Shown: piece after piece, positions 987 to 59,223 of the stretch
Position numbering within the stretch: the stretch's first letter is position 1
How the letters are laid out: each line of letters begins with the position of its first letter
From: a phage
Length of the DNA stretch: 59,223 nt
NCBI GenBank assembly: GCA_025276375.1
Contig: GCA_025276375.1_3645.1
Strand: one strand, 5' to 3'
Position numbers and translations under genes: made by a program
The notes under the pieces: generated by a model
Databases searched by the model: none
Told to the model about the DNA's origin: nothing
What the model saw: only the letters and a program-made list of their open reading frames with translations

Positions 987-3900
987 TGCCAATTGCAATG
1001 ATTGATAACATCGTTGCTTCTGCAAGATCTTCAAGTTATGACTGGAACGCATCCAAGGCAGCTCTGGCTGACAGCCTGAACACTGTTACCACCAGAACTC
1101 TGGATAAGATTTTTGAGGGCAACAAATCTTACAGAAGTCAGCAAGATAGACAAAAGCTTCTCAGATCTTCTGCTGCACCTTGCTCTGTAGTGTATGGAAA
1201 GACACGCACATCTGGATTGCTTGCGTTTTTGGAGCAGGATAGAGACAAAACCCTCCATTGTGCTATTGTTCTTGCCAATCACCCTCTGGAAGGTATAGAA
1301 GATATACTTATCGATGGTAATCCTATTTCCTCGTATGGAGATTTGGTATCGTGGGAATTACATAACGACAGAAAAACGGCTGATCCTTTCATGGGGACAC
1401 ACTGCCCATCGTGGTCACCAGACATGATAGGTAGAGGGATCAGTTGGCTACGTGCCAGCTTCAAGTTCGACCCTAACAAGTTTCCTTTTGGGTTGCCAAA
1501 CGTTACACTCGTCAAGGTTGGTAAAAAATGCTATGATCCTCGTATCAGTAAAGAGGTGTATACCAATAACGCTGCCTTGGTGATCCTGGACTATTTAAGA
1601 ACGTACCTTAAATGTCCTGACGAAACCATCAACTGGGAGTCCTTTAAGGAGGCTGCCAACATATGCGACGAGGCGGTAAAAAACGCTGACGGAACCAGTG
1701 AGCGACGTTACACCATTAACGGTGAGTTTGACATGGATGAGGCCCCAGCAAGTATTATGGCAGAAATGCTGAAAGCTTGCGGTGCAGACCTTAGTTATGT
1801 TGCTGGTAAGTATGGTTTGCTGGTTGGTGCATACTATGGTCCGGCAACAATGACATTGAGTGAGGACTGTGTCTGTGGTGAGGTTAAGATCTATCCGGAA
1901 GCCTCATTTGACAAAAGATCTAACACAATAACTGGCAGATTCACTAGTCCGACCAAAGGGTATTCTGAAACAGATTTCCCATCAGTGTTTGTCCCAGAGT
2001 GGATAGAGAAGGATGGAGAAAGAAAGATAATCGATATAGACTATCGCTTTGTTACCAGTCCTTATCAAGCTCAACGTGTTTCTGCAATCTTCTTAAGACG
2101 TGCTAGAGCTGGCAGGATTATTGAAGTCACCTGCAATATGCGAGGTTTTAAATTTAAGCCTGGCCGTTACGTTACAATGAATCTCCCAAGTATTGGTATA
2201 GTAGGCCAAGAAATGAGGGTTCTTGAATGGGAGTTCACCAAAAAGGGTGGTGTCAAGGTAAAACTTCGTCAAGATGCTAAAGAGTGGAATGATGCCACAG
2301 GGCAACTTCCGGATTCTGGTGATGTAGATATTCCGATATCTCCATCTGGTGTAGCTCAACCGCAAAACTTCAGATACTCCGTCCTCCAAGCTGGGGAAAT
2401 AACTCACGGTGTTCTGGCTTGGGACAACGTTGGGACTTACGCTCAAAATATTGTGCAGGTAAGAAAGAACGGAGAGATTGTTTGGACAGCACAGACAGTT
2501 GAGCAGTTTGTCCGAGTAGAAGGCTTGACCAAAGGGTCATACACAGCAACCGTGGTTGCAACATCTTATAAAGGTGGTGTATCTCCAGAAGCGTACTGCG
2601 AGTTTAACATTCAGGCACCTGAAGCTCCTGTTTCTGTAGAGGTTAAGCAGGGATACTTTGCTATCACCTTGATTCCACACAGCAGGGATTTAGCAAGTGT
2701 AAGCACCCAGTATGACTTTTGGACATCTGGTATGACAAGGTTGCCCGACACCAGCGATGCAACCGTTACTTCAAACGCCACCCGTATGGGTGTTGGTTCA
2801 ACTTGGACATCCGAAGGTCTGCAGAACGATAAGGTTTATTATTGGTATATTCGAACCACAAACGCTTTTGGTAGCTCTCAGTTTGTAGAGTGTGCTGCAC
2901 GCTGCTATACCTCCATTGAGGATTTGATGCCTCAGATAGATGCTGAATTCAAAAAGACAGAAACTTATAAAGAGTTGATGAGCACTTTAGATTCCTCTAT
3001 TGAAGAGGTTGAAAATCGTGTCACAGAACTTAACAGGTACATGGATGGTAGAGTTGACGAGGCTTTTGACCACATGGAAGGTGAGTTCTCTAGAGTAGAC
3101 AAGCTGTATGCTCAGTTGGGAGATAGGGTTGGAATATTCATCCAAGAAACCCACGACAACTTCCAGGACGTTAATGGAACGCTTACCACTCTAGATCAGA
3201 AACTGGTAGCCACTCAGAACAAGTTTGCAGATGATCTTTCTAAAGAAAGTGGCAAGCTTGCTTCTCTAATCCAGACCACTAACAAAGCTACAACCGATCT
3301 GTTGAATCAGAAAACTGAAGCTTTGGACGAGAAGATTGTTTCAACCAGGGGTGAGTTGGAAGATGCTTTAGCGCAGGAAAGCTCTGAGCTGAACTCCCTG
3401 ATTGTATCAACCAATAAAACGACTACAGATCTCCTTAATCGGAAAACCGAGGCTTTAGACAATAAGCTGACGGCAACGAAAGGTGAGTTGACCAACAATC
3501 TGCAGAATGAGAGTGCTAAACTATCGTCCTTGATTGAGTCAACCAACAAATCCACCACTGATCTTCTTAATAAGAAAACAGAGGCGTTGGATGAAAAACT
3601 GGTTGCTGCACAGGGCGAGTTGACTGAGCAGATCGGAGATGTTGAAAAAGGCTATCTGGCTGGTGATAAGAGCCTAGAGGGCAAGTTGAATACTCAAAGA
3701 TCTGAGTTGGATGCGAGCATTCTGAGCACTAACCAGGCCACTGTGGACTTGCTGAACAGAACTTCTGAGACTCTTGACCAGAAGATTAGCCAGACCAACG
3801 CCACAGTGTCCAAAAACTACACCACGCTTGATGGTAAGATAAACACCGCCAAGTCTGATCTTAATACGTTGATTTCTACCACCAACAAGGCCACAACTGA

Positions 3901-5131
3901 CCTGTTGAATCAGAAAACGGCAGCTTTGACTGAGCAGTTAACCACTGCTAAAGGGCAGATTACAACCAACACCAATAATATTACTGGGTTGGACAATAAG
4001 CTGACTCAGACGAAGAAAGACTTGTCTGCGAATATTTCTGAAACTAATAACGCCACTGTTGATCTGATTAACGGCACAGCGTCAGCTATTCGTCAAGAAC
4101 TTGCTGTTGCTAAGCAGGAGATCATTGATGGTGTTGGTGATGTGTCCGAGATCAGGGCTGCAGTAGCTACAACAGCTAAGGCTGTGACCGACTTAGAGGG
4201 TAAAGTAAATGCTCAGTGGGGTACAAAAATACAGGTAGACTCCGCAGGGAATAAATATGTTGCAGGTATCCAGTTGGGGATGGAAGGGTCTGGAGGCCAA
4301 GTTCAATCCTACTTCATGGTTAGTGCAAACAATTTTGCGGTATACAACCCAGGAAATGGAACAGCAACCCTTGCTTTCGCAATCAAGAACAACCAAGCGT
4401 TCTTGAAAGACGCTTTTATAGAGAATGGCACGATCTCCTCTGCCAAGATCGCACAAGAAATCTCGTCAAACAACTACGATGGCAACGGGTACCATAAATA
4501 CGGTTGGTATATTAACAAGAACGGGCACGCCCAATTTATGGATGTGTGGGTGAAAGGCAACATCAACGCTAGTTCTGGTAACTTCACAGGGGCAGTTAAC
4601 GCCACTAGTGGTACCTTCCGTGGGGATGTTTATGCCAATAATGGTAGCTTTAGGGGCACCATAGATGCAACCGGAGGTACCTTCCGTGGTCGTGTAGAAG
4701 CTTCTGTTATCCGTGCCAACCAGTTCGAAGGTGCAATTGTTGCACACAGGACTTACGGGGATTGTGCTCCAGTATATAACTCTCGGCAAAGGGTTTGCCG
4801 TTGGAGGTGGAGATACGTAGATAACGTTTCAGGTCAGGGTAAGAACGTAACATTCTTCTTTAAACTGAACGGTACTCTTGCCAGCTCCCAACTGAATGCA
4901 TGGATAGCTGGTCATCAGATCCTTGCTGGCAAGAAGTATTTTAACGACAACAACGGCATGTGTGCGGTAGGGATAACAGGTCTGGGTGAACAAACTATAG
5001 ACATTGTTATCGAGATTTACACACCGTGGTCAACGTCGAGCGTGACAGGTGTCACAATCTCCTGTCCCACTGTGATAGTAAGTCGTTCAAACTCTAGCTT
5101 CCAGGGACCTTGGAACGAGTCTCACGACTAA
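986..5131 (+). CDS. host specificity protein J-like central tail fiber (1381 aa)
   Basis: N-terminal gpJ-type motifs ('VVYGKTRTSGL', 'IVLANHPLEGIEDILIDGNPI', 'YDPRIS'); internal FN3-like segments; coiled-coil tandem repeats; C-terminal GxFxG-type repeats ('GTFRGDV','GSFRGTI','GTFRGRV'). Confidence 0.75.
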   Translation: MPIAMIDNIVASARSSSYDWNASKAALADSLNTVTTRTLDKIFEGNKSYRSQQDRQKLLRSSAAPCSVVYGKTRTSGLLAFLEQDRDKTLHCAIVLANHPLEGIEDILIDGNPISSYGDLVSWELHNDRKTADPFMGTHCPSWSPDMIGRGISWLRASFKFDPNKFPFGLPNVTLVKVGKKCYDPRISKEVYTNNAALVILDYLRTYLKCPDETINWESFKEAANICDEAVKNADGTSERRYTINGEFDMDEAPASIMAEMLKACGADLSYVAGKYGLLVGAYYGPATMTLSEDCVCGEVKIYPEASFDKRSNTITGRFTSPTKGYSETDFPSVFVPEWIEKDGERKIIDIDYRFVTSPYQAQRVSAIFLRRARAGRIIEVTCNMRGFKFKPGRYVTMNLPSIGIVGQEMRVLEWEFTKKGGVKVKLRQDAKEWNDATGQLPDSGDVDIPISPSGVAQPQNFRYSVLQAGEITHGVLAWDNVGTYAQNIVQVRKNGEIVWTAQTVEQFVRVEGLTKGSYTATVVATSYKGGVSPEAYCEFNIQAPEAPVSVEVKQGYFAITLIPHSRDLASVSTQYDFWTSGMTRLPDTSDATVTSNATRMGVGSTWTSEGLQNDKVYYWYIRTTNAFGSSQFVECAARCYTSIEDLMPQIDAEFKKTETYKELMSTLDSSIEEVENRVTELNRYMDGRVDEAFDHMEGEFSRVDKLYAQLGDRVGIFIQETHDNFQDVNGTLTTLDQKLVATQNKFADDLSKESGKLASLIQTTNKATTDLLNQKTEALDEKIVSTRGELEDALAQESSELNSLIVSTNKTTTDLLNRKTEALDNKLTATKGELTNNLQNESAKLSSLIESTNKSTTDLLNKKTEALDEKLVAAQGELTEQIGDVEKGYLAGDKSLEGKLNTQRSELDASILSTNQATVDLLNRTSETLDQKISQTNATVSKNYTTLDGKINTAKSDLNTLISTTNKATTDLLNQKTAALTEQLTTAKGQITTNTNNITGLDNKLTQTKKDLSANISETNNATVDLINGTASAIRQELAVAKQEIIDGVGDVSEIRAAVATTAKAVTDLEGKVNAQWGTKIQVDSAGNKYVAGIQLGMEGSGGQVQSYFMVSANNFAVYNPGNGTATLAFAIKNNQAFLKDAFIENGTISSAKIAQEISSNNYDGNGYHKYGWYINKNGHAQFMDVWVKGNINASSGNFTGAVNATSGTFRGDVYANNGSFRGTIDATGGTFRGRVEASVIRANQFEGAIVAHRTYGDCAPVYNSRQRVCRWRWRYVDNVSGQGKNVTFFFKLNGTLASSQLNAWIAGHQILAGKKYFNDNNGMCAVGITGLGEQTIDIVIEIYTPWSTSSVTGVTISCPTVIVSRSNSSFQGPWNESHD
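3271..4130 (+). repeat. intragenic tandem repeats (about 114-135 nt units) encoding 'STNKATTDLLNQKTEALDEKL...' coiled-coil heptads
   Basis: at least 6 consecutive diverged copies visible in DNA and protein (TTDLLN[QRK]KTEALD[EN]K). Confidence 0.7.
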
Positions 5132-5139
5132 CCTTTAAA

Positions 5140-5165
5140 GCCCCGCTTCGGCGGGGTTTATTTTT
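5140..5165 (+). terminator. intrinsic terminator, GCCCCGC-UUCG-GCGGGG hairpin plus U-tract
   Basis: perfect 6-7 bp GC stem, UUCG tetraloop, followed by TTTATTTTT, 9 nt after stop of gpJ-like gene. Confidence 0.8.
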
Positions 5166-5174
5166 ATGCTCAGA

Positions 5175-5236: not shown

Positions 5237-6727
5237 GTGGCTAAGTATGGATTGACAGAGGCTGGTTTCGTTATACCAACCCTAAATGACCTAATCGTTG
5301 AAACTAAGCAAAGCCTGATCCGTGCTTTTGGCGAAAACTTCAACGTACAGAGTAACTCCGTTGCAGATAAGCTGACCACTATCTTCAACGAGCGAGAGTA
5401 TCAACTTATTCTTATGGCAGCATCTGTATACGCATCACAGACGCTGTATGGGGCAGAAGGTATTTACCTAGATGAGCTTCTTGGAAGACAGGGTATTTAC
5501 CGAAGAGGCCGTTCTAAATCATCAGGTACCTGCCAGTTGACAATCAACACAACTGTGCCGTACAATATGATTTATGATTCCAAAACTTATACGCTGGACA
5601 GTGGCAACTTTGTTCTTAGCAACGATGTGCAAGTAGCAGGGAATCTTATTGCTCACAGAATAAATGCTCCAGACCTAAGGATTGGGAAATACAACTTCCA
5701 AATTACCAACCAGACAGATGGAAGTATCAAAACAAAAAGCCTGGTTTTAACAGATAAGTCTCTGGACTCTTCTGATTTGCCAAGCTTTTACGGAGAGATT
5801 AAGCAATTCATTGTCGATAATACAACCCTGTTGAACGACGATTTGATTCAGATCGATATGTTGACAGGGACGTTGTGGATAGGGTACAATTCAAATCTTG
5901 ATCAAGTTGGACTTAATAGCAGAGTAGATTTCAGAGTATCCCCGATTGTAGGGGAAAGAACTATCACACTGGATGTTATCGCTAACGAGGCTGGTGAGCT
6001 GTCAAGAGAAGCAGAAACCGTGACAACAATGTCGCCTACTCCTAGTGGATTTATCAAGCTTACCAACCGAGAAAGATTCAATGAGGGCAGGGATGTTGAG
6101 AAAGACTCAGAGTATCGCTTAAGAGCTTCCAGCACAAAACAGTTAACATCGAAGGCTACCCGTCCTGCAATCCTTAGCGCTGTAAGCGAGGTAAAAGGTG
6201 TTGAGAAAGTGAGAGTGTTCTCCAACAACACCGATAAAACTGATGCTAAAGGTATACCTCCTTACAAGTTCCAAGTGGTTGTGTTTGGTGGTGCAACGGA
6301 GGACATTTGCCAAGCACTTTACCAAACTATAGCCTGTACGAACAGGACTTATGGTAATATTTTCTACGATATCGCTACATCTGACGGTCAAACTGAAAGA
6401 ATTTATTACTCCAGGGCAAATACCTACCGCCTAGATGTAAGAATTACCTATTCCGGCGCTGCGCTTTCCACAACCGAAAAAGATGCCATTGTAGAGGCTC
6501 TTTTGCAGGTTGTTAACGGACTTGATGTTGCAGATACGTTGTACAATATCCAATTGGTCGGTGCTGCATCCGCTGCTGTGTCGATAGGTAGATTTAATAG
6601 ACTGGTAATTCAAGTTAAACCAGTAGGAGCTTCTGATGAAGCTTACACGACAAACGATATTGTTGCGAACATGACCGAGGTGTTTGACCTCGACGAAAGT
6701 AATATAACTTTCCAACAAACTATTTAA
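5237..6727 (+). CDS. baseplate J-like protein
   Basis: GTG start 6 nt after GGAGG; N-terminal region resembles Baseplate_J/gp47 family ('ASQTLYGAEGIYLDELLGRQGIYRRG'); assignment from recalled family features. Confidence 0.45.
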   Translation: MAKYGLTEAGFVIPTLNDLIVETKQSLIRAFGENFNVQSNSVADKLTTIFNEREYQLILMAASVYASQTLYGAEGIYLDELLGRQGIYRRGRSKSSGTCQLTINTTVPYNMIYDSKTYTLDSGNFVLSNDVQVAGNLIAHRINAPDLRIGKYNFQITNQTDGSIKTKSLVLTDKSLDSSDLPSFYGEIKQFIVDNTTLLNDDLIQIDMLTGTLWIGYNSNLDQVGLNSRVDFRVSPIVGERTITLDVIANEAGELSREAETVTTMSPTPSGFIKLTNRERFNEGRDVEKDSEYRLRASSTKQLTSKATRPAILSAVSEVKGVEKVRVFSNNTDKTDAKGIPPYKFQVVVFGGATEDICQALYQTIACTNRTYGNIFYDIATSDGQTERIYYSRANTYRLDVRITYSGAALSTTEKDAIVEALLQVVNGLDVADTLYNIQLVGAASAAVSIGRFNRLVIQVKPVGASDEAYTTNDIVANMTEVFDLDESNITFQQTI

Positions 6728-31463: not shown

Positions 31464-31490
31464 CCCCCGCTTCGGCGGGGATTTTCTATT
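31464..31490 (+). terminator. intrinsic terminator, CCCCGC-UUCG-GCGGGG hairpin plus U-tract
   Basis: same stem-loop as the 5140 terminator, followed by ATTTTCTATTT. Confidence 0.75.
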
Positions 31491-31500
31491 TGGAGTTATT

Positions 31501-39509: not shown

Positions 39510-39536
39510 GCCCTGCCCGAAAGGGTGGGGCTTTTT
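39510..39536 (+). terminator. intrinsic terminator, GCCCUGCCC-GAAA-GGGUGGGGC plus UUUUU
   Basis: 9-bp stem with two G-U pairs, GNRA tetraloop, T-tract. Confidence 0.75.
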
Positions 39537-51150: not shown

Positions 51151-51178
51151 GCCCTGCCCGAAAGGGTGGGGCATTTTT
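51151..51178 (+). terminator. intrinsic terminator, second copy of GCCCUGCCC-GAAA-GGGUGGGGC hairpin
   Basis: stem-loop identical to 39510-39531, followed by ATTTTTG. Confidence 0.7.
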
Positions 51179-54675: not shown

Positions 54676-54987
54676 TACTTGAAAATTCCTGGCATATCAA
54701 GTGTAAGGGGGATTTCTAAAATGGATTTCCTCCTTTTGATATTTCACCGGGCTGGATATTTTAAAATTCTTAGAAAATCAGAAAATGGATCGAAAACTAA
54801 AATGGATTTTTCAGAGTAGGCGCGACAAGCTGAATAACTCATCCTATCGTTTGCACCATATTCCAGGCCACCATTATAGATTTCCCACACATGCTAACCT
54901 CCCTCTACTAGAACTTCCTCCACTTGCCCTTAACCTTCTATGGTAACAATCTAACCACTATCTTGAAGTTGCGGTGCAGCTTTCCAA

Positions 54988-55116
54988 GTACTCGATCTAC
55001 TTTTCATTTCATGGCTTGGATTTTCTGAAAATTTTTCTCGATAAATTTCTCAGTACTCGATCTGTTTTTCGTTTTCTGAATCGGATTTTCTGGAAATCGT
55101 TCCGGATCTCGACCTG
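54988..55116 (+). repeat. tandem direct repeat, two ~64-bp units (AGTACTCGATCT...GGATTTTCTG...)
   Basis: unit 1 at 54988-55051, unit 2 at 55052-55116, roughly 75 percent identical by eye. Confidence 0.6.
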
Positions 55117-55277
55117 AAATTTTTGGGGACGAAATCGATTTTTCGTTTTCAGAAATGGATTTTTAAAATTTCTATATGGGAATATTTTATGGTATACTGT
55201 TTTATAGGAAATTGTTACGGAGGGTAATTAGCATGCTAATTAAATTTATTAAATGCGAGGAGTTCTCATTTAGAATT

Positions 55278-55296
55278 TTGAATGATAATCATTCTC
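55278..55296. promoter_or_regulatory. Fur-box-like palindrome, site 1 (TTGAATGATAATCATTCTC)
   Basis: 15/19 match to GATAATGATAATCATTATC; core AATGAT-A-ATCATT is a perfect inverted repeat. Confidence 0.45.
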
Positions 55297-55413
55297 GTTT
55301 GCAGAATAACGGGCAGGCCCGGTGATTGTCTCCCGGCCCCTGTTGCCCCGGCTTGTTATTATAGTATCACACAGGACAAAGAAAGCAAGGATTTTTTGCA
55401 TAAATTTTTAAAT

Positions 55414-55432
55414 GATAATGATAACCGTTCTC
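55414..55432. promoter_or_regulatory. Fur-box-like palindrome, site 2 (GATAATGATAACCGTTCTC)
   Basis: 16/19 match to the Fur-box consensus; followed by sequence related to that after site 1. Confidence 0.4.
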
Positions 55433-55869
55433 ATTTTATGCAGCGCCCATCCCCGGTGGTTGTCTCCCCCGTCACCGGTGCCTGCCGTCCTTTCGATAGG
55501 TATATTGTGCCACCTGGCGGGGCCGCTGTCAACACTTTTCAAAAAATTTTTCTAACCTGATGCGCTAACCGCTGCAACCTGGCGGGGCCAGCCTGGCAGT
55601 ACCTAACTGACCAGGTAGGAGAGAATGAAGGCTTGTAAACCTGGTGGGCCTATGCTATAGGACAGGTAACAATTGAAGAGGAGGTACAAAAATAAAAGGT
55701 AATATGATCCCCTGGAAAATGTAGCTATTAATGACGCTGAGGCTATCGCCCTGGTAGAAAAGGCCATGGCGGGAGCGTTGGAACATAAAGAAGAGTACGA
55801 AAAAATGATGGTTAACCTGGCAGGGCGGCGGCAGGTGGATTCTATCATAAAAATAATTTAAAATAATTG

Positions 55870-55897
55870 TTGACAACCGGGGGAGTCCTGCTATTCT
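55870..55897 (+). promoter_or_regulatory. sigma70-like promoter TTGACA-N16-TATTCT
   Basis: -35 at 55870-55875; upstream of gene 55950. Confidence 0.45.
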
Positions 55898-55949
55898 TAC
55901 CCTACAAGGTGAACAACACCGCACTAACTAGTAAAGAGGATAAAAAATC

Positions 55950-56147
55950 ATGAACGCATACGGAATCAAAGTACGTCGCAACACTCGCCAGGCGGTCACC
56001 GATCAAGTGGTTTGCCTGGTGGATGTAACCATCAACAACGGGCAAGGCCTTTATAAATTTCGTCGCGGTCATAGCTATACCCTGCAACAGCTTAATCGTT
56101 GCGCCCTGACAAAAGGTCAGATCAATCACTGGTTTAATAAAAAATAA
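55950..56147 (+). CDS. hypothetical early protein (65 aa)
   Basis: AAAGAGGA SD. Confidence 0.45.
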   Translation: MNAYGIKVRRNTRQAVTDQVVCLVDVTINNGQGLYKFRRGHSYTLQQLNRCALTKGQINHWFNKK

Positions 56148-56150
56148 GTA

Positions 56151-56179
56151 TTGACATACGCCCCGACACAAAATATACT
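56151..56179 (+). promoter_or_regulatory. sigma70-like promoter TTGACA-N17-TATACT
   Basis: -35 at 56151-56156, -10 at 56174-56179. Confidence 0.65.
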
Positions 56180-56616: not shown

Positions 56617-56644
56617 TTGACACGCTGCAAAATTCAAGTAAACT
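56617..56644 (+). promoter_or_regulatory. sigma70-like promoter TTGACA-N16-TAAACT followed by 5'UTR hairpin GGCGGGA/TCCCGCC
   Basis: -35 at 56617-56622, -10 at 56639-56644; leader hairpin at 56655-56673. Confidence 0.55.
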
Positions 56645-56692
56645 AGGCACAAAAGGCGGGAATGTTTCCCGCCAACACGAAGGAAAAAGATC

Positions 56693-57097
56693 ATGAATAA
56701 GAACGTACGCCGTATCATGAACGAACTGGCAAACGATGAAAAAATTATTGACATGCATTTAGTCAACATTTGCCGCCGTTGTGTAACATATAACAACCGC
56801 GCCGCAAAAGCGCGTGGGATGAACGCAAAAGGCACCTTAAAGCCCTTCCAGGTGGTGGTAAAGGCCATTAAAGATGTAACTAATACAGCAAACCAGGTAC
56901 AGGGGAACACCAACGAGAGTACCAATATTGATCCGGCTTACATCATGAAACGGATCCGGACCTGCAAGAACAAAGAGCAAGTGTATAACGTCATAGACTG
57001 GTTGGATTCTATGGGCGACGTGGTGTACAATAGGTTTTCTGCAGCTATCGAGATCCAGCTTGACAGGTTGGACGGGAAAGTACTGAAAACTTATTAA
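56693..57097 (+). CDS. hypothetical early protein (134 aa)
   Basis: AAGGAAAAAG SD. Confidence 0.45.
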   Translation: MNKNVRRIMNELANDEKIIDMHLVNICRRCVTYNNRAAKARGMNAKGTLKPFQVVVKAIKDVTNTANQVQGNTNESTNIDPAYIMKRIRTCKNKEQVYNVIDWLDSMGDVVYNRFSAAIEIQLDRLDGKVLKTY

Positions 57098-57098
57098 G

Positions 57099-57144
57099 TT
57101 TATTTTCAGATGGCCTTGACTCCAGGGCCATCAATAAAGTAAAC
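57099..57144 (+). repeat. 46-nt repeated hairpin element, copy 1 (TTTATTTTCAGATGGCCTTGACTCCAGGGCCATCAATAAAGTAAAC)
   Basis: identical to 57722-57767; 6-bp stem ATGGCC/GGCCAT with 10-nt loop; begins 2 nt after a stop codon. Confidence 0.7.
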
Positions 57145-57178
57145 TAGTCTCAACTAAGCGAAAAAAGGGGGCTTTAAG

Positions 57179-57298
57179 ATGAGCACTGCACGCCAATACA
57201 CAAAGGTAACTATTATCGTTTGCGTTGTCGGTTACATCCTGGCGCAAATGTTAATGAGTAGCGCCAACAGTTTTGCAAAATTTTTCTTAAATTTTTAA
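57179..57298 (+). CDS. small hydrophobic ORF (39 aa), not in supplied ORF track
   Basis: hand-translated MSTARQYTKVTIIVCVVGYILAQMLMSSANSFAKFFLNF; AAGGGGG SD at 7-8 nt. Confidence 0.3.
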   Translation: MSTARQYTKVTIIVCVVGYILAQMLMSSANSFAKFFLNF

Positions 57299-57326
57299 TT
57301 GACAAGCTAACCCAAATCGGTATACT
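57299..57326 (+). promoter_or_regulatory. sigma70-like promoter TTGACA-N16-TATACT
   Basis: -35 at 57299-57304, -10 at 57321-57326; TATACTTAAACAC shared with promoter 59137. Confidence 0.65.
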
Positions 57327-57377
57327 TAAACACGTAAACGGGAAAACTTCCCAGAACACACAAAAGGAGAAAACACC

Positions 57378-57719
57378 ATGACTACTATGACCGCCGCAGA
57401 AAAAGCTATGCAGATCTCCGCGCTGAAAAAACAGATCGCAGACCTTGAGAACAAGATCGATAACTTTGAAATCGACGAGGACAAGTACGACGAAAACTAT
57501 GATGAATGGTTAGACGAGATCTACGGCGAAATTATGATCGGAAACATTTCTTTTCTTCCGTCGCGTATCCTCAAGGAGTTAGATCCTATCGCTTACCGCT
57601 GCGGATTTAGCGACTACATCGACAGCCTGGATATTGAGGACGATGAAGAATACCAGGAATTGCAGACAGAGCTGGAAGAAGTGAAAGAAGAGCTTTCAGA
57701 GCTGGAAGAAAACGAGTAA
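57378..57719 (+). CDS. highly acidic coiled-coil protein (113 aa)
   Basis: AAGGAG SD; Asp/Glu-rich throughout ('DEDKYDENYDEWLDEIYGE', 'DIEDDEEYQELQTELEEVKEELSELEENE'). Confidence 0.5.
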   Translation: MTTMTAAEKAMQISALKKQIADLENKIDNFEIDEDKYDENYDEWLDEIYGEIMIGNISFLPSRILKELDPIAYRCGFSDYIDSLDIEDDEEYQELQTELEEVKEELSELEENE

Positions 57720-57721
57720 AA

Positions 57722-57767
57722 TTTATTTTCAGATGGCCTTGACTCCAGGGCCATCAATAAAGTAAAC
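57722..57767 (+). repeat. 46-nt repeated hairpin element, copy 2
   Basis: identical to 57099-57144; begins 3 nt after stop of 57378-57719. Confidence 0.7.
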
Positions 57768-57806
57768 TTTACACTGTTAACACTGAACTAATGAGGAGTT
57801 AAAACC

Positions 57807-58052
57807 ATGGCAGCACTAATCACAAAATATTATGCGCCCACCAACACTAAAAGCGCCCGGATCATGGTAAAAGGCTTCGGACGTAAAAAGGTTTACACCT
57901 GGGATTATTCCCTGGACATGGAAGACAACTACACCAACGCGATGACCGATTTTATTAACGAGCTGAATACGCGGATCTTAACAAATTATAAAATTACCGA
58001 CATTGCTTATATAGGTGAAGGCGGGATCTGTTTTGTAGGCATTGTGAAATAG
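57807..58052 (+). CDS. hypothetical early protein (81 aa)
   Basis: GAGGAG SD. Confidence 0.45.
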   Translation: MAALITKYYAPTNTKSARIMVKGFGRKKVYTWDYSLDMEDNYTNAMTDFINELNTRILTNYKITDIAYIGEGGICFVGIVK

Positions 58053-58125
58053 TTATTTTTCGGTGGTCCTGGCTGCAGGGCCATCTATAAAGATAATTTA
58101 TTAACACCATGAAAGGAGAAAGTAC

Positions 58126-58473
58126 ATGATCAGCGGGGCTAGTTTTATTATTGGCGCTATTGCTACGGCTTTAATTGTAAACAAGATCCAATCTAAAAAC
58201 GAAAAAGATAGCAACGCGCTCACAGAATACCCATTTTGGGTATTCAACGACAACGAAGACTACATAATCAAGTACAAAGATGAGAGAGGCGACCAGGTAA
58301 CACCGCGACCGATCCCAGCTTACAAGATGCAAGAAACACTATACCGCCTAAAGGCCGGAGGCGCAAAGATCGTAGACTTTTGGGGATATGATTGCAAGGA
58401 TCAGGAGGTTATAAAACGGCGTATCCGGGCGATTCAGGCAAATATTGAAATCAGTAAAGGGGGAAATTTATGA
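58126..58473 (+). CDS. hypothetical early protein with N-terminal hydrophobic helix (115 aa)
   Basis: AAAGGAG SD; 'ISGASFIIGAIATALIV'. Confidence 0.45.
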   Translation: MISGASFIIGAIATALIVNKIQSKNEKDSNALTEYPFWVFNDNEDYIIKYKDERGDQVTPRPIPAYKMQETLYRLKAGGAKIVDFWGYDCKDQEVIKRRIRAIQANIEISKGGNL

Positions 58474-58667
58474 AAATTAATTTCGAAAAAATTGTAAAGC
58501 GCCCCCACGATTCCGAAGAGCTGCCGGAACGCCGCCAGCGTAACAATAAACTGAATAAGCCGAAAAGGTTCGGGAAGATCTGGAGGAATCACTATGATCG
58601 CAAATTACCGGGCCTGCTTTTGGAACGTGAACGACAGGCAGAACGATACCGCCATAAAGACAAATAA
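58470..58667 (+). CDS. small basic protein (65 aa)
   Basis: AAAGGGGGA SD; Arg/Lys-rich. Confidence 0.4.
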   Translation: MKINFEKIVKRPHDSEELPERRQRNNKLNKPKRFGKIWRNHYDRKLPGLLLERERQAERYRHKDK

Positions 58668-58675
58668 CAACCAAC

Positions 58676-58703
58676 GCCCCGCCATTGTGCGGGGCTTTTT
58701 ATT
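58676..58703 (+). terminator. intrinsic terminator GCCCCGC-CATTGT-GCGGGGC plus UUUUUAUUUC
   Basis: 7-bp GC stem followed by T-tract, 9 nt after stop. Confidence 0.75.
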
Positions 58704-59164: not shown

Positions 59165-59223
59165 TAAACACACAGGCGGGAAAACTTCCCGCCACTAACA
59201 AAGAAAATAGGAGAAAATATCAT

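What the first reader, a model, noticed from the sequence alone, without database searches (positions are those of the whole stretch)
57099..58083. Identical 46-nt hairpin element repeated after two early genes, with a diverged third copy
TTTATTTTCAGATGGCCTTGACTCCAGGGCCATCAATAAAGTAAAC occurs at 57099-57144 and 57722-57767, each starting 2-3 nt after a stop codon. A related hairpin (UGGUCCUG-GCUG-CAGGGCCA) lies at 58064-58083 after the next gene. None is followed by a U-tract, so they are not canonical intrinsic terminators; the loop holds a TTGACT hexamer but no -10 at correct spacing. They could be RNA processing or stability elements, factor-dependent terminators, or protein-binding sites.
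Basis: seen in the sequence. Interest (0 to 1): 0.45.

Follow-up and report, generated by a model that had tools for sequence, protein, structure and literature searches.

The report
T7-style RNase III hairpins in rV5-like phage
Three copies of a conserved two-tier RNA hairpin sit between early genes of an rV5-like coliphage; they are built like the RNase III cutting sites of phage T7 early mRNA and also act as recombination joints, so they are a new example of a known kind of element, not a new kind.

Summary
The 46-mer is exact at 57099-57144 and 57722-57767, with a diverged copy at 58051-58098. The window is an rV5-like Vequintavirus. Relatives carry four copies, all in one early region; the fourth lies beyond the window end.

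Each copy folds on the sense strand into a 10-bp A/U lower stem, a 2x3 or 1x3 internal loop, a 10-bp G/C upper stem and a tetraloop. All upper-stem substitutions keep pairing through G.U, so selection acts on RNA.

They are not terminators: there is no U-tract. A primary promoter role is unlikely, because the -35-like bases lie in the most variable part and the "spacer" is invariant.

The architecture matches T7 RNase III sites. A covariance model built only from seven T7 sites ranks these elements first across the phage genome, although E-values are marginal. The canonical UA/UG distal box is in register.

Best reading (about 0.55): RNase III processing sites cut after 57135, 57758 and 58088. 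This is untested experimentally.

The repeats also mediate recombination: gene conversion, a 623-bp deletion, and cassette transfer into a phi92-like phage.

The parts
57097..57145 (+). Element E1, a two-tier RNA hairpin. Lower stem 57097-57106 pairs with 57136-57145. Internal loop is CA (57107-57108) opposite AAU (57133-57135). Upper stem 57109-57118 pairs with 57123-57132. Tetraloop ACUC is 57119-57122. It lies between ORF 56693-57097 and the 39-aa ORF 57179-57298.
   Evidence: Pair probabilities are at least 0.95 with 100-200 nt of flanking sequence.
57135..57136 (+). Predicted RNase III cleavage in E1, after the third base of the 3' internal loop (AAU^A). This corresponds to UAU^G in the T7 sites.
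   Evidence: Inference from the T7 folds, the covariance-model alignment and the box geometry described in PMC1540722.
57720..57768 (+). Element E2, with a core identical to E1. Upper stem 57732-57741 pairs with 57746-57755. Loop is 57742-57745. The 3' internal loop is 57756-57758. It lies between ORF 57378-57719 and ORF 57807-58052.
57758..57759 (+). Predicted RNase III cleavage in E2.
   Evidence: Inference, on the same basis as for E1.
58051..58098 (+). Element E3, the diverged copy. Lower stem 58051-58060 pairs with 58089-58098. Internal loop is C (58061) opposite UAU (58086-58088). Upper stem 58062-58071 pairs with 58076-58085. Loop GCUG is 58072-58075. It lies between ORF 57807-58052 and ORF 58126-58473.
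58088..58089 (+). Predicted RNase III cleavage in E3 (UAU^A).
   Evidence: Inference, on the same basis as for E1.
56617..56644 (+). Context: early promoter TTGACA-N16-TAAACT driving the operon that contains E1. It is followed by a 5' hairpin at 56655-56673.
57299..57326 (+). Context: early promoter TTGACA-N16-TATACT driving gene-E2-gene-E3-gene-gene. It is also the left end of the cassette found in phage KKE7M.
58676..58700 (+). Context: canonical intrinsic terminator (a 7-bp G/C stem followed by TTTTTATTTC) that ends the operon. It shows what a real terminator looks like in this phage.

Best explanation
Each element is an RNA hairpin of about 49 nt that forms in the sense-strand polycistronic early transcripts, between cistrons that have no promoter of their own. 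It is built like the RNase III processing sites of phage T7 early mRNA. The parts are a lower stem of about 10 bp, a small asymmetric internal loop with 3 nt on the 3' side, a 10-bp upper stem carrying a UA/UG distal box next to the loop-closing pair, and a tetraloop.

I propose that host E. coli RNase III binds the roughly 20-bp coaxial helix and cuts once, in the 3' side of the internal loop (after 57135, 57758 and 58088). The upstream mRNA would then end in the complete upper hairpin, a barrier to 3' exonucleases. The downstream mRNA would get a new 5'-monophosphate end 38-49 nt before its start codon. That would uncouple the stability and translation of neighbouring early genes.

What is shown: the repeat, the sense-strand structure, its conservation pattern, the architectural match to T7 sites, and the intercistronic position. 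What is inferred: that RNase III is the enzyme, that cleavage is single, the exact cut position, and the effect on mRNA fate.

At the DNA level the same repeats serve as short homology patches for recombination. This is shown by a hybrid copy, a cassette transfer and shared derived bases.
For: - Structure and strand. The + strand folds to -24.7, -24.8 and -22.4 kcal/mol (z -7.1, -6.7, -4.5). The - strand gives only -17.2 and -10.6. Pair probabilities are 0.92-1.00 with 100-200 nt of flanking sequence.
- Conservation. In 28 copies from 11 genomes, 279 of 280 upper-stem cells pair. All five variable pairs change on one side only and stay paired through G.U (A-U/G.U, U-A/U.G, C-G/U.G, U.G/C-G, G-C/G.U). 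The loop is the most variable part (0.98 bits), against 0.07-0.26 bits in the upper stem. E3 lower stems differ in sequence between genomes but fold fully in most of them (10-14 pairs); the V18 and L028 copies carry a one-position mismatch.
- T7 comparison. Seven T7 RNase III sites fold to the same two-tier plan, with cleavage in a 3-nt 3' loop. Their alignment is 90.6% paired. A model built only from them finds, in 197,896 bases of rV5-like DNA, only the elements, full length and on the correct strand. With filters off, the top six hits are all elements at 14.6-22.2 bits, against a background of at most 13 bits. The KKE7M copy scores 22.1 bits, E 0.0064.
- Box geometry from PMC1540722. Counting the non-Watson-Crick A x A position, 11 pair positions separate loop and cut. 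The distal box is U-A then U.G, exactly in register, in E1 and E2. Proximal-box position 2 is A-U. Position 4 is non-Watson-Crick, as in R1.1.
- Location. The elements lie inside operons P56617-gene-E1-ORF and P57299-gene-E2-gene-E3-gene-gene-terminator.
Against: - There is no experimental end-mapping for any rV5-like phage. No paper in the library links RNase III with this group.
- E-values from the T7-derived model are marginal (0.006-0.8).
- The reverse search, rV5 model against the T7 genome, finds nothing. The likeness is architectural, not sequence homology.
- Proximal-box positions 1 (U-A) and 3 (G-C) differ from the T7 consensus (G-C and A-U).
- E3 has G.U at position 2 and C-G at distal-box position 2.
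- The internal loop (2x3) is smaller than in T7, so cleavage could be double, or binding could occur without cleavage.
- Gotham has lost E1 through a 5-nt deletion, and phiWec193 E2 has U.U at the distal box. Individual copies are therefore dispensable.
- The T7 site coordinates come from my own knowledge of Dunn and Studier 1983. They are not annotated in the records fetched.
Confidence: 0.55

Rival explanations
1. Composite sigma-70 promoter. TTGACT in the hairpin top acts as -35, TAAACT in the 3' arm as -10 at 18 nt, and the T-rich 5' arm as an UP element. On this reading the element starts transcription of the next gene, and the hairpin is secondary, as in T4-type PeSL cassettes.
For: - The hexamers score 9 of 12 at E1 and E2.
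- PhagePromoter called copies E2 and E4 promoters in phage Gotham.
- The 3' arm AATAAAGTAAACT is identical to the spacer end plus -10 of a likely genuine promoter in phi92-like PD114 (TTGCAA-N16-TAAACT followed by a 5' hairpin). P56617 in the window also uses TAAACT.
- V18 copies have a perfect TTGACA.
Against: - A 9-of-12 match is chance level here: 27 were found against 12.4 expected.
- The real early promoters use 16-17 nt spacers.
- E3 has no -35 (CTGGCT or CTGGTA) yet keeps the full RNA structure.
- The -35 3' half is the most variable part of the element, while the 'spacer' is invariant. That is the reverse of what a promoter shows.
- One natural copy has a 20-nt spacer but still folds.
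- The 5' arm of the upper stem, upstream of the -35, is conserved with wobble-compatible changes. A promoter does not need that.
Confidence: 0.15
2. RNase III-independent stability element. The hairpin simply blocks 3' exonucleases after cleavage elsewhere, or directs RNase E to the adjacent A/U-rich tracts. Either would give the operon segments different half-lives, as REP or puf-type intercistronic hairpins do.
For: The elements are stable sense-strand hairpins in intercistronic positions. A/U-rich sequence next to a G/C hairpin is the usual RNase E context (established knowledge).
Against: - The A/U tracts are paired with each other at probability 0.92-0.96 and covary in E3, so they are not single-stranded.
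- This reading does not explain the internal loop geometry, the 10+10 bp design or the in-register UA/UG pair, all of which the RNase III reading explains.
Confidence: 0.15
3. Transcription terminator or attenuator, either intrinsic without a U-tract or factor-dependent, as annotated for copies E3 and E4 in phage Murica.
For: The Murica record annotates the E3 and E4 copies as terminators. The elements have a G/C-rich hairpin just after a stop codon.
Against: - The stem is followed by CAAUAAAGUAAAC or CUAUAAAGAUAAU, which is A-rich with no U-tract. The terminator scan does not pick the elements up on either strand.
- The phage uses canonical terminators where operons end (58676-58700).
- The genes after E1-E3 have no strong promoter of their own, so termination here would silence them.
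- There is no C-rich unstructured rut-like tract.
Confidence: 0.05
4. Binding site for a protein other than RNase III. Candidates are a phage RNA-binding translational regulator, or a dimeric DNA-binding protein recognising the palindrome ATGGCC...GGCCAT.
For: The upper stem is almost invariant in sequence, more than pairing alone requires. The element is repeated only in one early region.
Against: - The DNA palindrome is imperfect. All differences between E1 and E3 lie on the 5' arm and are wobble-compatible only as + strand RNA.
- The loop, the usual protein contact, is the most variable part.
- No candidate protein was identified. The neighbouring ORFs have no known domains except a T7 gp1.1 homologue.
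Confidence: 0.07
5. A selfish or neutral DNA repeat spread by recombination, with no function in RNA.
For: There is evidence of gene conversion, a deletion hybrid and a cassette transfer.
Against: - There are only four copies, always in the same orientation and always intercistronic.
- The strand-specific pairing is maintained across copies and genomes.
- The diverged E3 kept the structure while changing sequence.
Confidence: 0.03

Closest known systems
RNase III processing sites of phage T7 early mRNA (R0.3, R0.5, R1, R1.1, R1.3, R4.7, R18.5)
   Same: - Both are two-tier hairpins: a lower stem of about 10 bp, an asymmetric internal loop with 3 nt on the 3' side, a 10-bp upper stem and a 3-5 nt loop.
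- Both lie between cistrons of polycistronic early transcripts in an E. coli phage.
- The cut site falls 27-35 nt before the next start codon at four T7 sites (120 nt at R1.1), against 38-49 nt predicted here.
- The UA/UG distal box is in the same register as in R1.1, and proximal-box position 4 is non-Watson-Crick.
- The T7-derived covariance model ranks the elements first.
- A T7 gene 1.1 homologue lies in the same operon.
   Different: - There is no detectable sequence homology: the reverse model search is empty, and the shared GGYC...GGCC motif is one position out of register.
- The internal loop is smaller (2x3 or 1x3).
- The lower stem is purely A/U.
- Proximal-box positions 1 and 3 differ from the T7 consensus.
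- The host phage is a 137-kb myovirus that uses host RNA polymerase.
- Cleavage has not been demonstrated.
PeSL (promoter-early stem-loop) cassettes of T4-type phages (Arbiol et al. 2010, PMC2839356; Comeau et al. 2014, PMC4122927)
   Same: - Both are short conserved regulatory repeats between small early ORFs of unknown function.
- Both contain a G/C stem-loop, an A/T-rich tract and sigma-70-like hexamers.
- Both serve as recombination points that delete, insert or swap ORF cassettes, leaving chimeric repeats. Examples here are the L007 E1/E2 hybrid and the KKE7M cassette.
   Different: - In PeSLs the order is stem-loop, then A/T-rich tract, then a strong consensus promoter, and the stem-loop was shown to terminate transcription.
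- Here the hairpin overlaps the weak -35-like hexamer, the A/T tracts pair with each other, there is no terminator tail, and the strong promoters are separate elements.
- There are only four copies, not dozens.
Intrinsic (Rho-independent) terminators
   Same: Both have a G/C-rich hairpin immediately after a stop codon.
   Different: There is no U-tract. T-rich sequence lies before the hairpin and A-rich sequence after it, the reverse of a terminator.

Membership tests
E. coli RNase III hairpin substrate of the T7 type | About two helical turns (around 20 bp) of coaxial double-stranded RNA | tested here: met
   E1 has 10 + 10 bp (E2 8-10 and E3 9-10 in the lower stem). The structure is stable with 100-200 nt of flanking sequence, with pair probabilities of 0.92-1.00.
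E. coli RNase III hairpin substrate of the T7 type | Asymmetric internal loop at the cut site that limits cleavage to the 3' strand | tested here: met
   The loop is CA opposite AAU in E1 and E2, and C opposite UAU in E3. T7 sites fold with 1-3 nt opposite 3 nt. Single cleavage itself is inferred.
E. coli RNase III hairpin substrate of the T7 type | 11 bp between tetraloop and cut site, with a UA/UG distal box next to the loop-closing pair | tested here: met
   In E1 and E2 the order is closing G-C, then U-A, then U.G. In E3 it is U-A then C-G, a combination also seen in T7 sites. The rule comes from PMC1540722.
E. coli RNase III hairpin substrate of the T7 type | Proximal box: no G-C or C-G at positions 2 and 4, with consensus G-C, W-W', A-U, W-W' | tested here: inconclusive
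   Position 2 is A-U and position 4 is non-Watson-Crick, both acceptable. Position 1 is U-A and position 3 is G-C, both off consensus. E3 has G.U at position 2.
E. coli RNase III hairpin substrate of the T7 type | Significant match to a covariance model of the T7 sites | tested here: inconclusive
   The elements are the top-ranked hits, full length and on the correct strand. Scores are 14.6-22.2 bits with E-values of 0.006-0.8. The reverse search is empty.
E. coli RNase III hairpin substrate of the T7 type | Cleavage that depends on rnc, in vivo or with purified enzyme | not testable with these tools
   No transcript-end data are available, and no paper was found.
Intrinsic terminator | U-tract directly after a G/C hairpin | tested here: not met
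   The tail is CAAUAAAG or CUAUAAAG. The elements are absent from the terminator scan, which does find 58676-58700.
Sigma-70 promoter | -35 and -10 hexamers conserved at 16-18 nt spacing, with a free spacer sequence | tested here: not met
   E1 and E2 score 9 of 12 at 18 nt, which is chance level. E3 lacks a -35. The -35 3' half is the most variable part and the spacer is invariant. One copy has a 20-nt spacer.
T4-type PeSL cassette | Repeat between small early ORFs that mediates indels and leaves chimeric repeats | tested here: met
   L007 carries an E1/E2 hybrid with a 623-bp deletion. The KKE7M cassette has one junction inside the element. E1 and E2 share derived bases.
T4-type PeSL cassette | Architecture of terminator stem-loop, then A/T tract, then a strong consensus sigma-70 promoter | tested here: not met
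   The hairpin overlaps a weak -35-like hexamer, there is no terminator tail, and the strong promoters are separate.

The most novel reading that the evidence does not exclude
The element could be a dual-use module boundary. As RNA it would be an RNase III site that insulates each early cistron. As DNA its 3' arm copies the -10 region of the early promoters of these phages (AATAAAGTAAACT). That lets 'promoter-gene-hairpin' cassettes recombine into any early promoter and move between phage subfamilies while arriving with their own expression and processing signals. This would be a PeSL-like shuffling system built on a processing site instead of a terminator.
Probability: 0.3. Interest if true: 0.6.

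Novelty: new member of a known kind. Interest (0 to 1): 0.45.

Why it matters
- RNase III processing of phage early mRNA is textbook for T7 and lambda, but has not been described for the large rV5-like myoviruses, which are widely used in phage therapy and biocontrol.
- Public records annotate the same element as "terminator" in one genome and "promoter" in another. A correct reading would fix these annotations.
- It gives three precise, testable cleavage coordinates.
- It would explain how promoter-less early genes are expressed as separate mRNAs.
- The recombination evidence shows how a 469-bp expression cassette moved between two phage subfamilies. That bears on how early "ORFan" regions are shuffled.

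Tried and rejected
- Rfam (E up to 10) has no family at the elements.
- The rV5 genome paper lists 33 promoters and 20 terminators, but none of the core sequences I searched appear in its supplements.
- The model of the rV5 element finds nothing in T7, so common descent is not supported.
- Early regions of the more distant relatives Klebsiella phi1_175008 and Serratia ChuuTotoro have no analogous hairpin with either model.
- IMG/VR and metagenome scans gave only rV5-like contigs. The single hits in soil metagenomes and the five hits in bacterial MAGs do not match the model and are at the number expected by chance.
- A tblastn search with the gp1.1-like ORF found only Vequintavirus records, so there is no T7-like intermediate to test for joint transfer of site plus gene.
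- RNase III sites are not annotated in the T7 records available, and a literature search for their coordinates failed.
- Literature searches found no transcriptome or RNase III work on this phage group.
- The terminator, symmetric DNA operator and primary-promoter readings were considered and set aside, for the reasons given under the rival explanations.

Full report
**What is there**

The 46-mer TTTATTTTCAGATGGCCTTGACTCCAGGGCCATCAATAAAGTAAAC occurs exactly at 57099-57144 and 57722-57767. No match is expected by chance. The repeat finder adds a third copy at 58038-58098, at 64% identity.

The window is an rV5-like coliphage of the genus Vequintavirus. It is 98.9% identical to phiWec193 over this region, and about 120 related records exist.

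A covariance model built from ten copies finds exactly four copies in the whole 138.7-kb phiWec193 genome. All four are on the same strand within 4.4 kb of the early region. The model finds three copies in the window and nothing else. The fourth copy lies beyond the window end; in Murica it is at L001 7833-7877.

**Structure**

The T-rich 5' flank also pairs with the A-rich 3' flank. The resulting plan is:
- a 10-bp lower stem;
- an internal loop of CA opposite AAU in E1 and E2, or C opposite UAU in E3;
- a 10-bp upper stem;
- a tetraloop.

Free energies on the + strand are -24.7, -24.8 and -22.4 kcal/mol, with z-scores of -7.1, -6.7 and -4.5. The - strand gives only -17.2 and -10.6 kcal/mol. 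With 100-200 nt of natural flanks the upper pairs have probability 1.00 and the lower pairs 0.92-0.96.

I compared 28 copies from 11 genomes: the window, phiWec193, phiWec191, Murica, Gotham, APECc02, V18, KKE7M and metagenomic contigs.
- 279 of 280 upper-stem cells pair.
- Five pairs vary. Each varies on one side only and stays paired through G.U.
- These changes would be A.C mismatches on the other strand or in a DNA cruciform.
- The loop is the most variable part, at 0.98 bits. The upper stem is at 0.07-0.26 bits and the flanks at about 1.2 bits.
- E3 lower stems differ between genomes, for example GUUAUUUUUU/AAAGAUAAU against AUAAACUGUUUUUU/AAAGAUAGUUUAU. Most fold fully, at 10-14 pairs; the V18 and L028 copies carry a one-position mismatch.

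Selection therefore acts on a sense-strand RNA structure.

**Context**

The strong early promoters here are TTGACA-N16-TATACT or TAAACT, at 56151, 56617, 57299, 58827 and 59137. The one canonical terminator in this stretch is at 58676-58700.

The elements lie inside operons:
- P56617, 134-aa gene, E1, 39-aa ORF;
- P57299, 113-aa gene, E2, 81-aa gene, E3, 115-aa gene, 65-aa gene, terminator.

The genes after E1-E3 have no promoter of their own. The neighbouring ORFs have no known function, except the 65-aa ORF, which is a T7 gp1.1 homologue (PF08200, 44.2 bits).

**What it is not**

It is not an intrinsic terminator.
- The tail after the stem is A-rich.
- The terminator scan ignores the elements but finds the true terminator.
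- Murica's "terminator" labels on two copies are software calls.

It is not primarily a promoter.
- TTGACT-N18-TAAACT scores 9 of 12. The region has 27 such matches against 12.4 expected.
- E3 has no -35.
- The -35 3' half sits in the most variable positions, while the supposed spacer is invariant.
- One natural copy has a 20-nt spacer yet still folds.
- Gotham's "promoter" labels come from PhagePromoter.

Weak secondary promoter activity cannot be excluded.

**Comparison with T7**

I folded the ten T7 RNase III sites, using coordinates from my own knowledge of Dunn and Studier 1983. They are not annotated in the records fetched. The classical sites show the same plan, and the cut falls after the 3-nt 3' loop, UAU^G.

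An alignment of seven sites is 90.6% paired, and 11 pairs show changes on both sides. I built a covariance model from these seven sites alone and searched with it.
- In the window plus the whole phiWec193 genome (197,896 bases, both strands), it returned three hits. All are elements, full length and on the correct strand.
- With filters off, the top six hits are all elements at 14.6-22.2 bits. Background reaches at most 13 bits.
- The KKE7M copy scores 22.1 bits, E 0.0064.

The E-values are marginal (0.006-0.8). The reverse search, rV5 model against T7, is empty. The likeness is therefore architectural and does not demonstrate homology.

**RNase III recognition rules**

Pertzev and Nicholson (PMC1540722) report the following:
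- an 11-bp helix between cut and tetraloop is the minimum;
- a UA/UG distal box is a positive determinant, with a stringent U.G;
- G-C or C-G at proximal-box position 2 blocks binding;
- G-C or C-G at position 4 blocks catalysis;
- internal loops restrict cleavage to one strand and leave a protective 3' hairpin.

Mapped onto E1 and E2, from the loop downward, the pairs are:
- closing G-C;
- U-A and U.G, the distal box, in exact register;
- C-G, C-G, G-C, G-C;
- U-A at position 1, which is off consensus;
- A-U at position 2, which is acceptable;
- G-C at position 3, which is off consensus (T7 R1 has C-G there);
- A x A at position 4, which is non-Watson-Crick as in R1.1.

Two further bases follow, and then the predicted cut. 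This reading explains the otherwise odd conserved U.G in a G/C stem.

E3 has C x U at position 4, exactly as in R1.1. It also has C-G at distal-box position 2 and G.U at proximal-box position 2, so it may be a weaker site.

**Recombination**

Three observations show that the repeats are used as homology patches.
- Gene conversion. E1 and E2 share lineage-specific bases within a genome: UUUUCAG in the window and phiWec193, loop ACUU in APECc02, and loop ACAC plus GCUUAUU in V18. E4 of the same genome lacks them.
- Deletion. Contig L007 has one hybrid copy with the E1 left flank and the E2 right flank. The 623 bp between E1 and E2 are missing.
- Cassette transfer. KKE7M, a phi92-like Justusliebigvirus from another subfamily, carries window 57298-57766 at 97% identity. 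That stretch is promoter, 5' hairpin, 113-aa gene and E2. Its relative PD114 shows the alternative site. The left junction is inside the promoter spacer. The right junction is inside AATAAAGTAAA, a sequence shared by the element's 3' arm and the -10 region of a PD114 promoter.

This parallels PeSL-mediated shuffling in T4-type phages. The architecture differs, however: PeSLs are a terminator stem-loop followed by a strong promoter.

**Distribution**

The element is confined to Vequintavirus, plus the single KKE7M copy. The more distant relatives I examined have no analogue.

**Verdict**

The best explanation is a small family of T7-type RNase III processing hairpins in early operons, with confidence of about 0.55. 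The RNA-structure part alone is about 0.9. The elements double as recombination joints.

This is a new member of a known kind and is of moderate interest. The decisive test is rnc-dependent RNA end mapping at three stated coordinates.

Noticed in passing
window 56655-56673, 57340-57352, 59175-59193 (also L016 about 1029-1050 and L010 about 6073-6094): Most of the strong early promoters here (those at 56617, 57299 and 59137; P58827 has none) are followed, about 10 nt after the -10, by a short G/C hairpin such as GGCGGGAAUGUUUCCCGCC. This places a stem-loop at the very 5' end of the mRNA. The same design occurs in phi92-like phages. It is probably a 5' stabiliser against 5'-end-dependent decay.
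   Followed up: no
window about 54700-56150, with repeats at 54978-55163: This is an ORF-poor stretch with three diverged direct repeats of 47-62 nt (families D3 and D6). It probably corresponds to the 'non-coding' box on the rV5 genome map (PMC3606486). Tandem Repeats Finder found only a weak 12-nt array. Its function is unknown.
   Followed up: partly
window 58470-58667: This 65-aa ORF is a homologue of T7 gene 1.1 (Pfam PF08200, 44.2 bits against a cut-off of 21). It lies in the same operon as E2 and E3. In T7, gene 1.1 follows RNase III site R1.1. A tblastn search found no intermediate relatives.
   Followed up: partly
L010 5591-6058 (KKE7M) compared with L016 (PD114): A 469-bp cassette of promoter, gene and hairpin is shared at 97% identity between an rV5-like and a phi92-like phage. 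The junctions lie in a promoter spacer and in the 11-nt AATAAAGTAAA.
   Followed up: yes
L007 211-269: This metagenomic rV5-like contig has a single E1/E2 hybrid copy. It lacks the 39-aa ORF, promoter P57299 and the 113-aa gene.
   Followed up: yes
L002 3391-3444 (Gotham) and L005 25409-25467 (phiWec193): These are naturally damaged copies. Gotham E1 has lost 5 nt of the 3' arm, which weakens the fold to -8.9 kcal/mol. phiWec193 E2 has U.U in place of the U.G distal-box pair.
   Followed up: partly
GenBank MG0656xx records: Seventeen records named 'Campylobacter phage' are more than 93% identical to this coliphage region. They are probably coliphage genomes carrying the wrong host label.
   Followed up: no
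window 3275-3937: There are five diverged 60-nt direct repeats spaced 132-186 nt apart (family D1). They presumably encode a repeated protein domain in a structural gene.
   Followed up: no
window 39510-39536 and 51151-51177; 5141-5168 and 31465-31492: There are two pairs of near-identical canonical terminator hairpins with U-tracts at distant sites (families D15 and D17). They show that the phage reuses terminator sequences.
   Followed up: no
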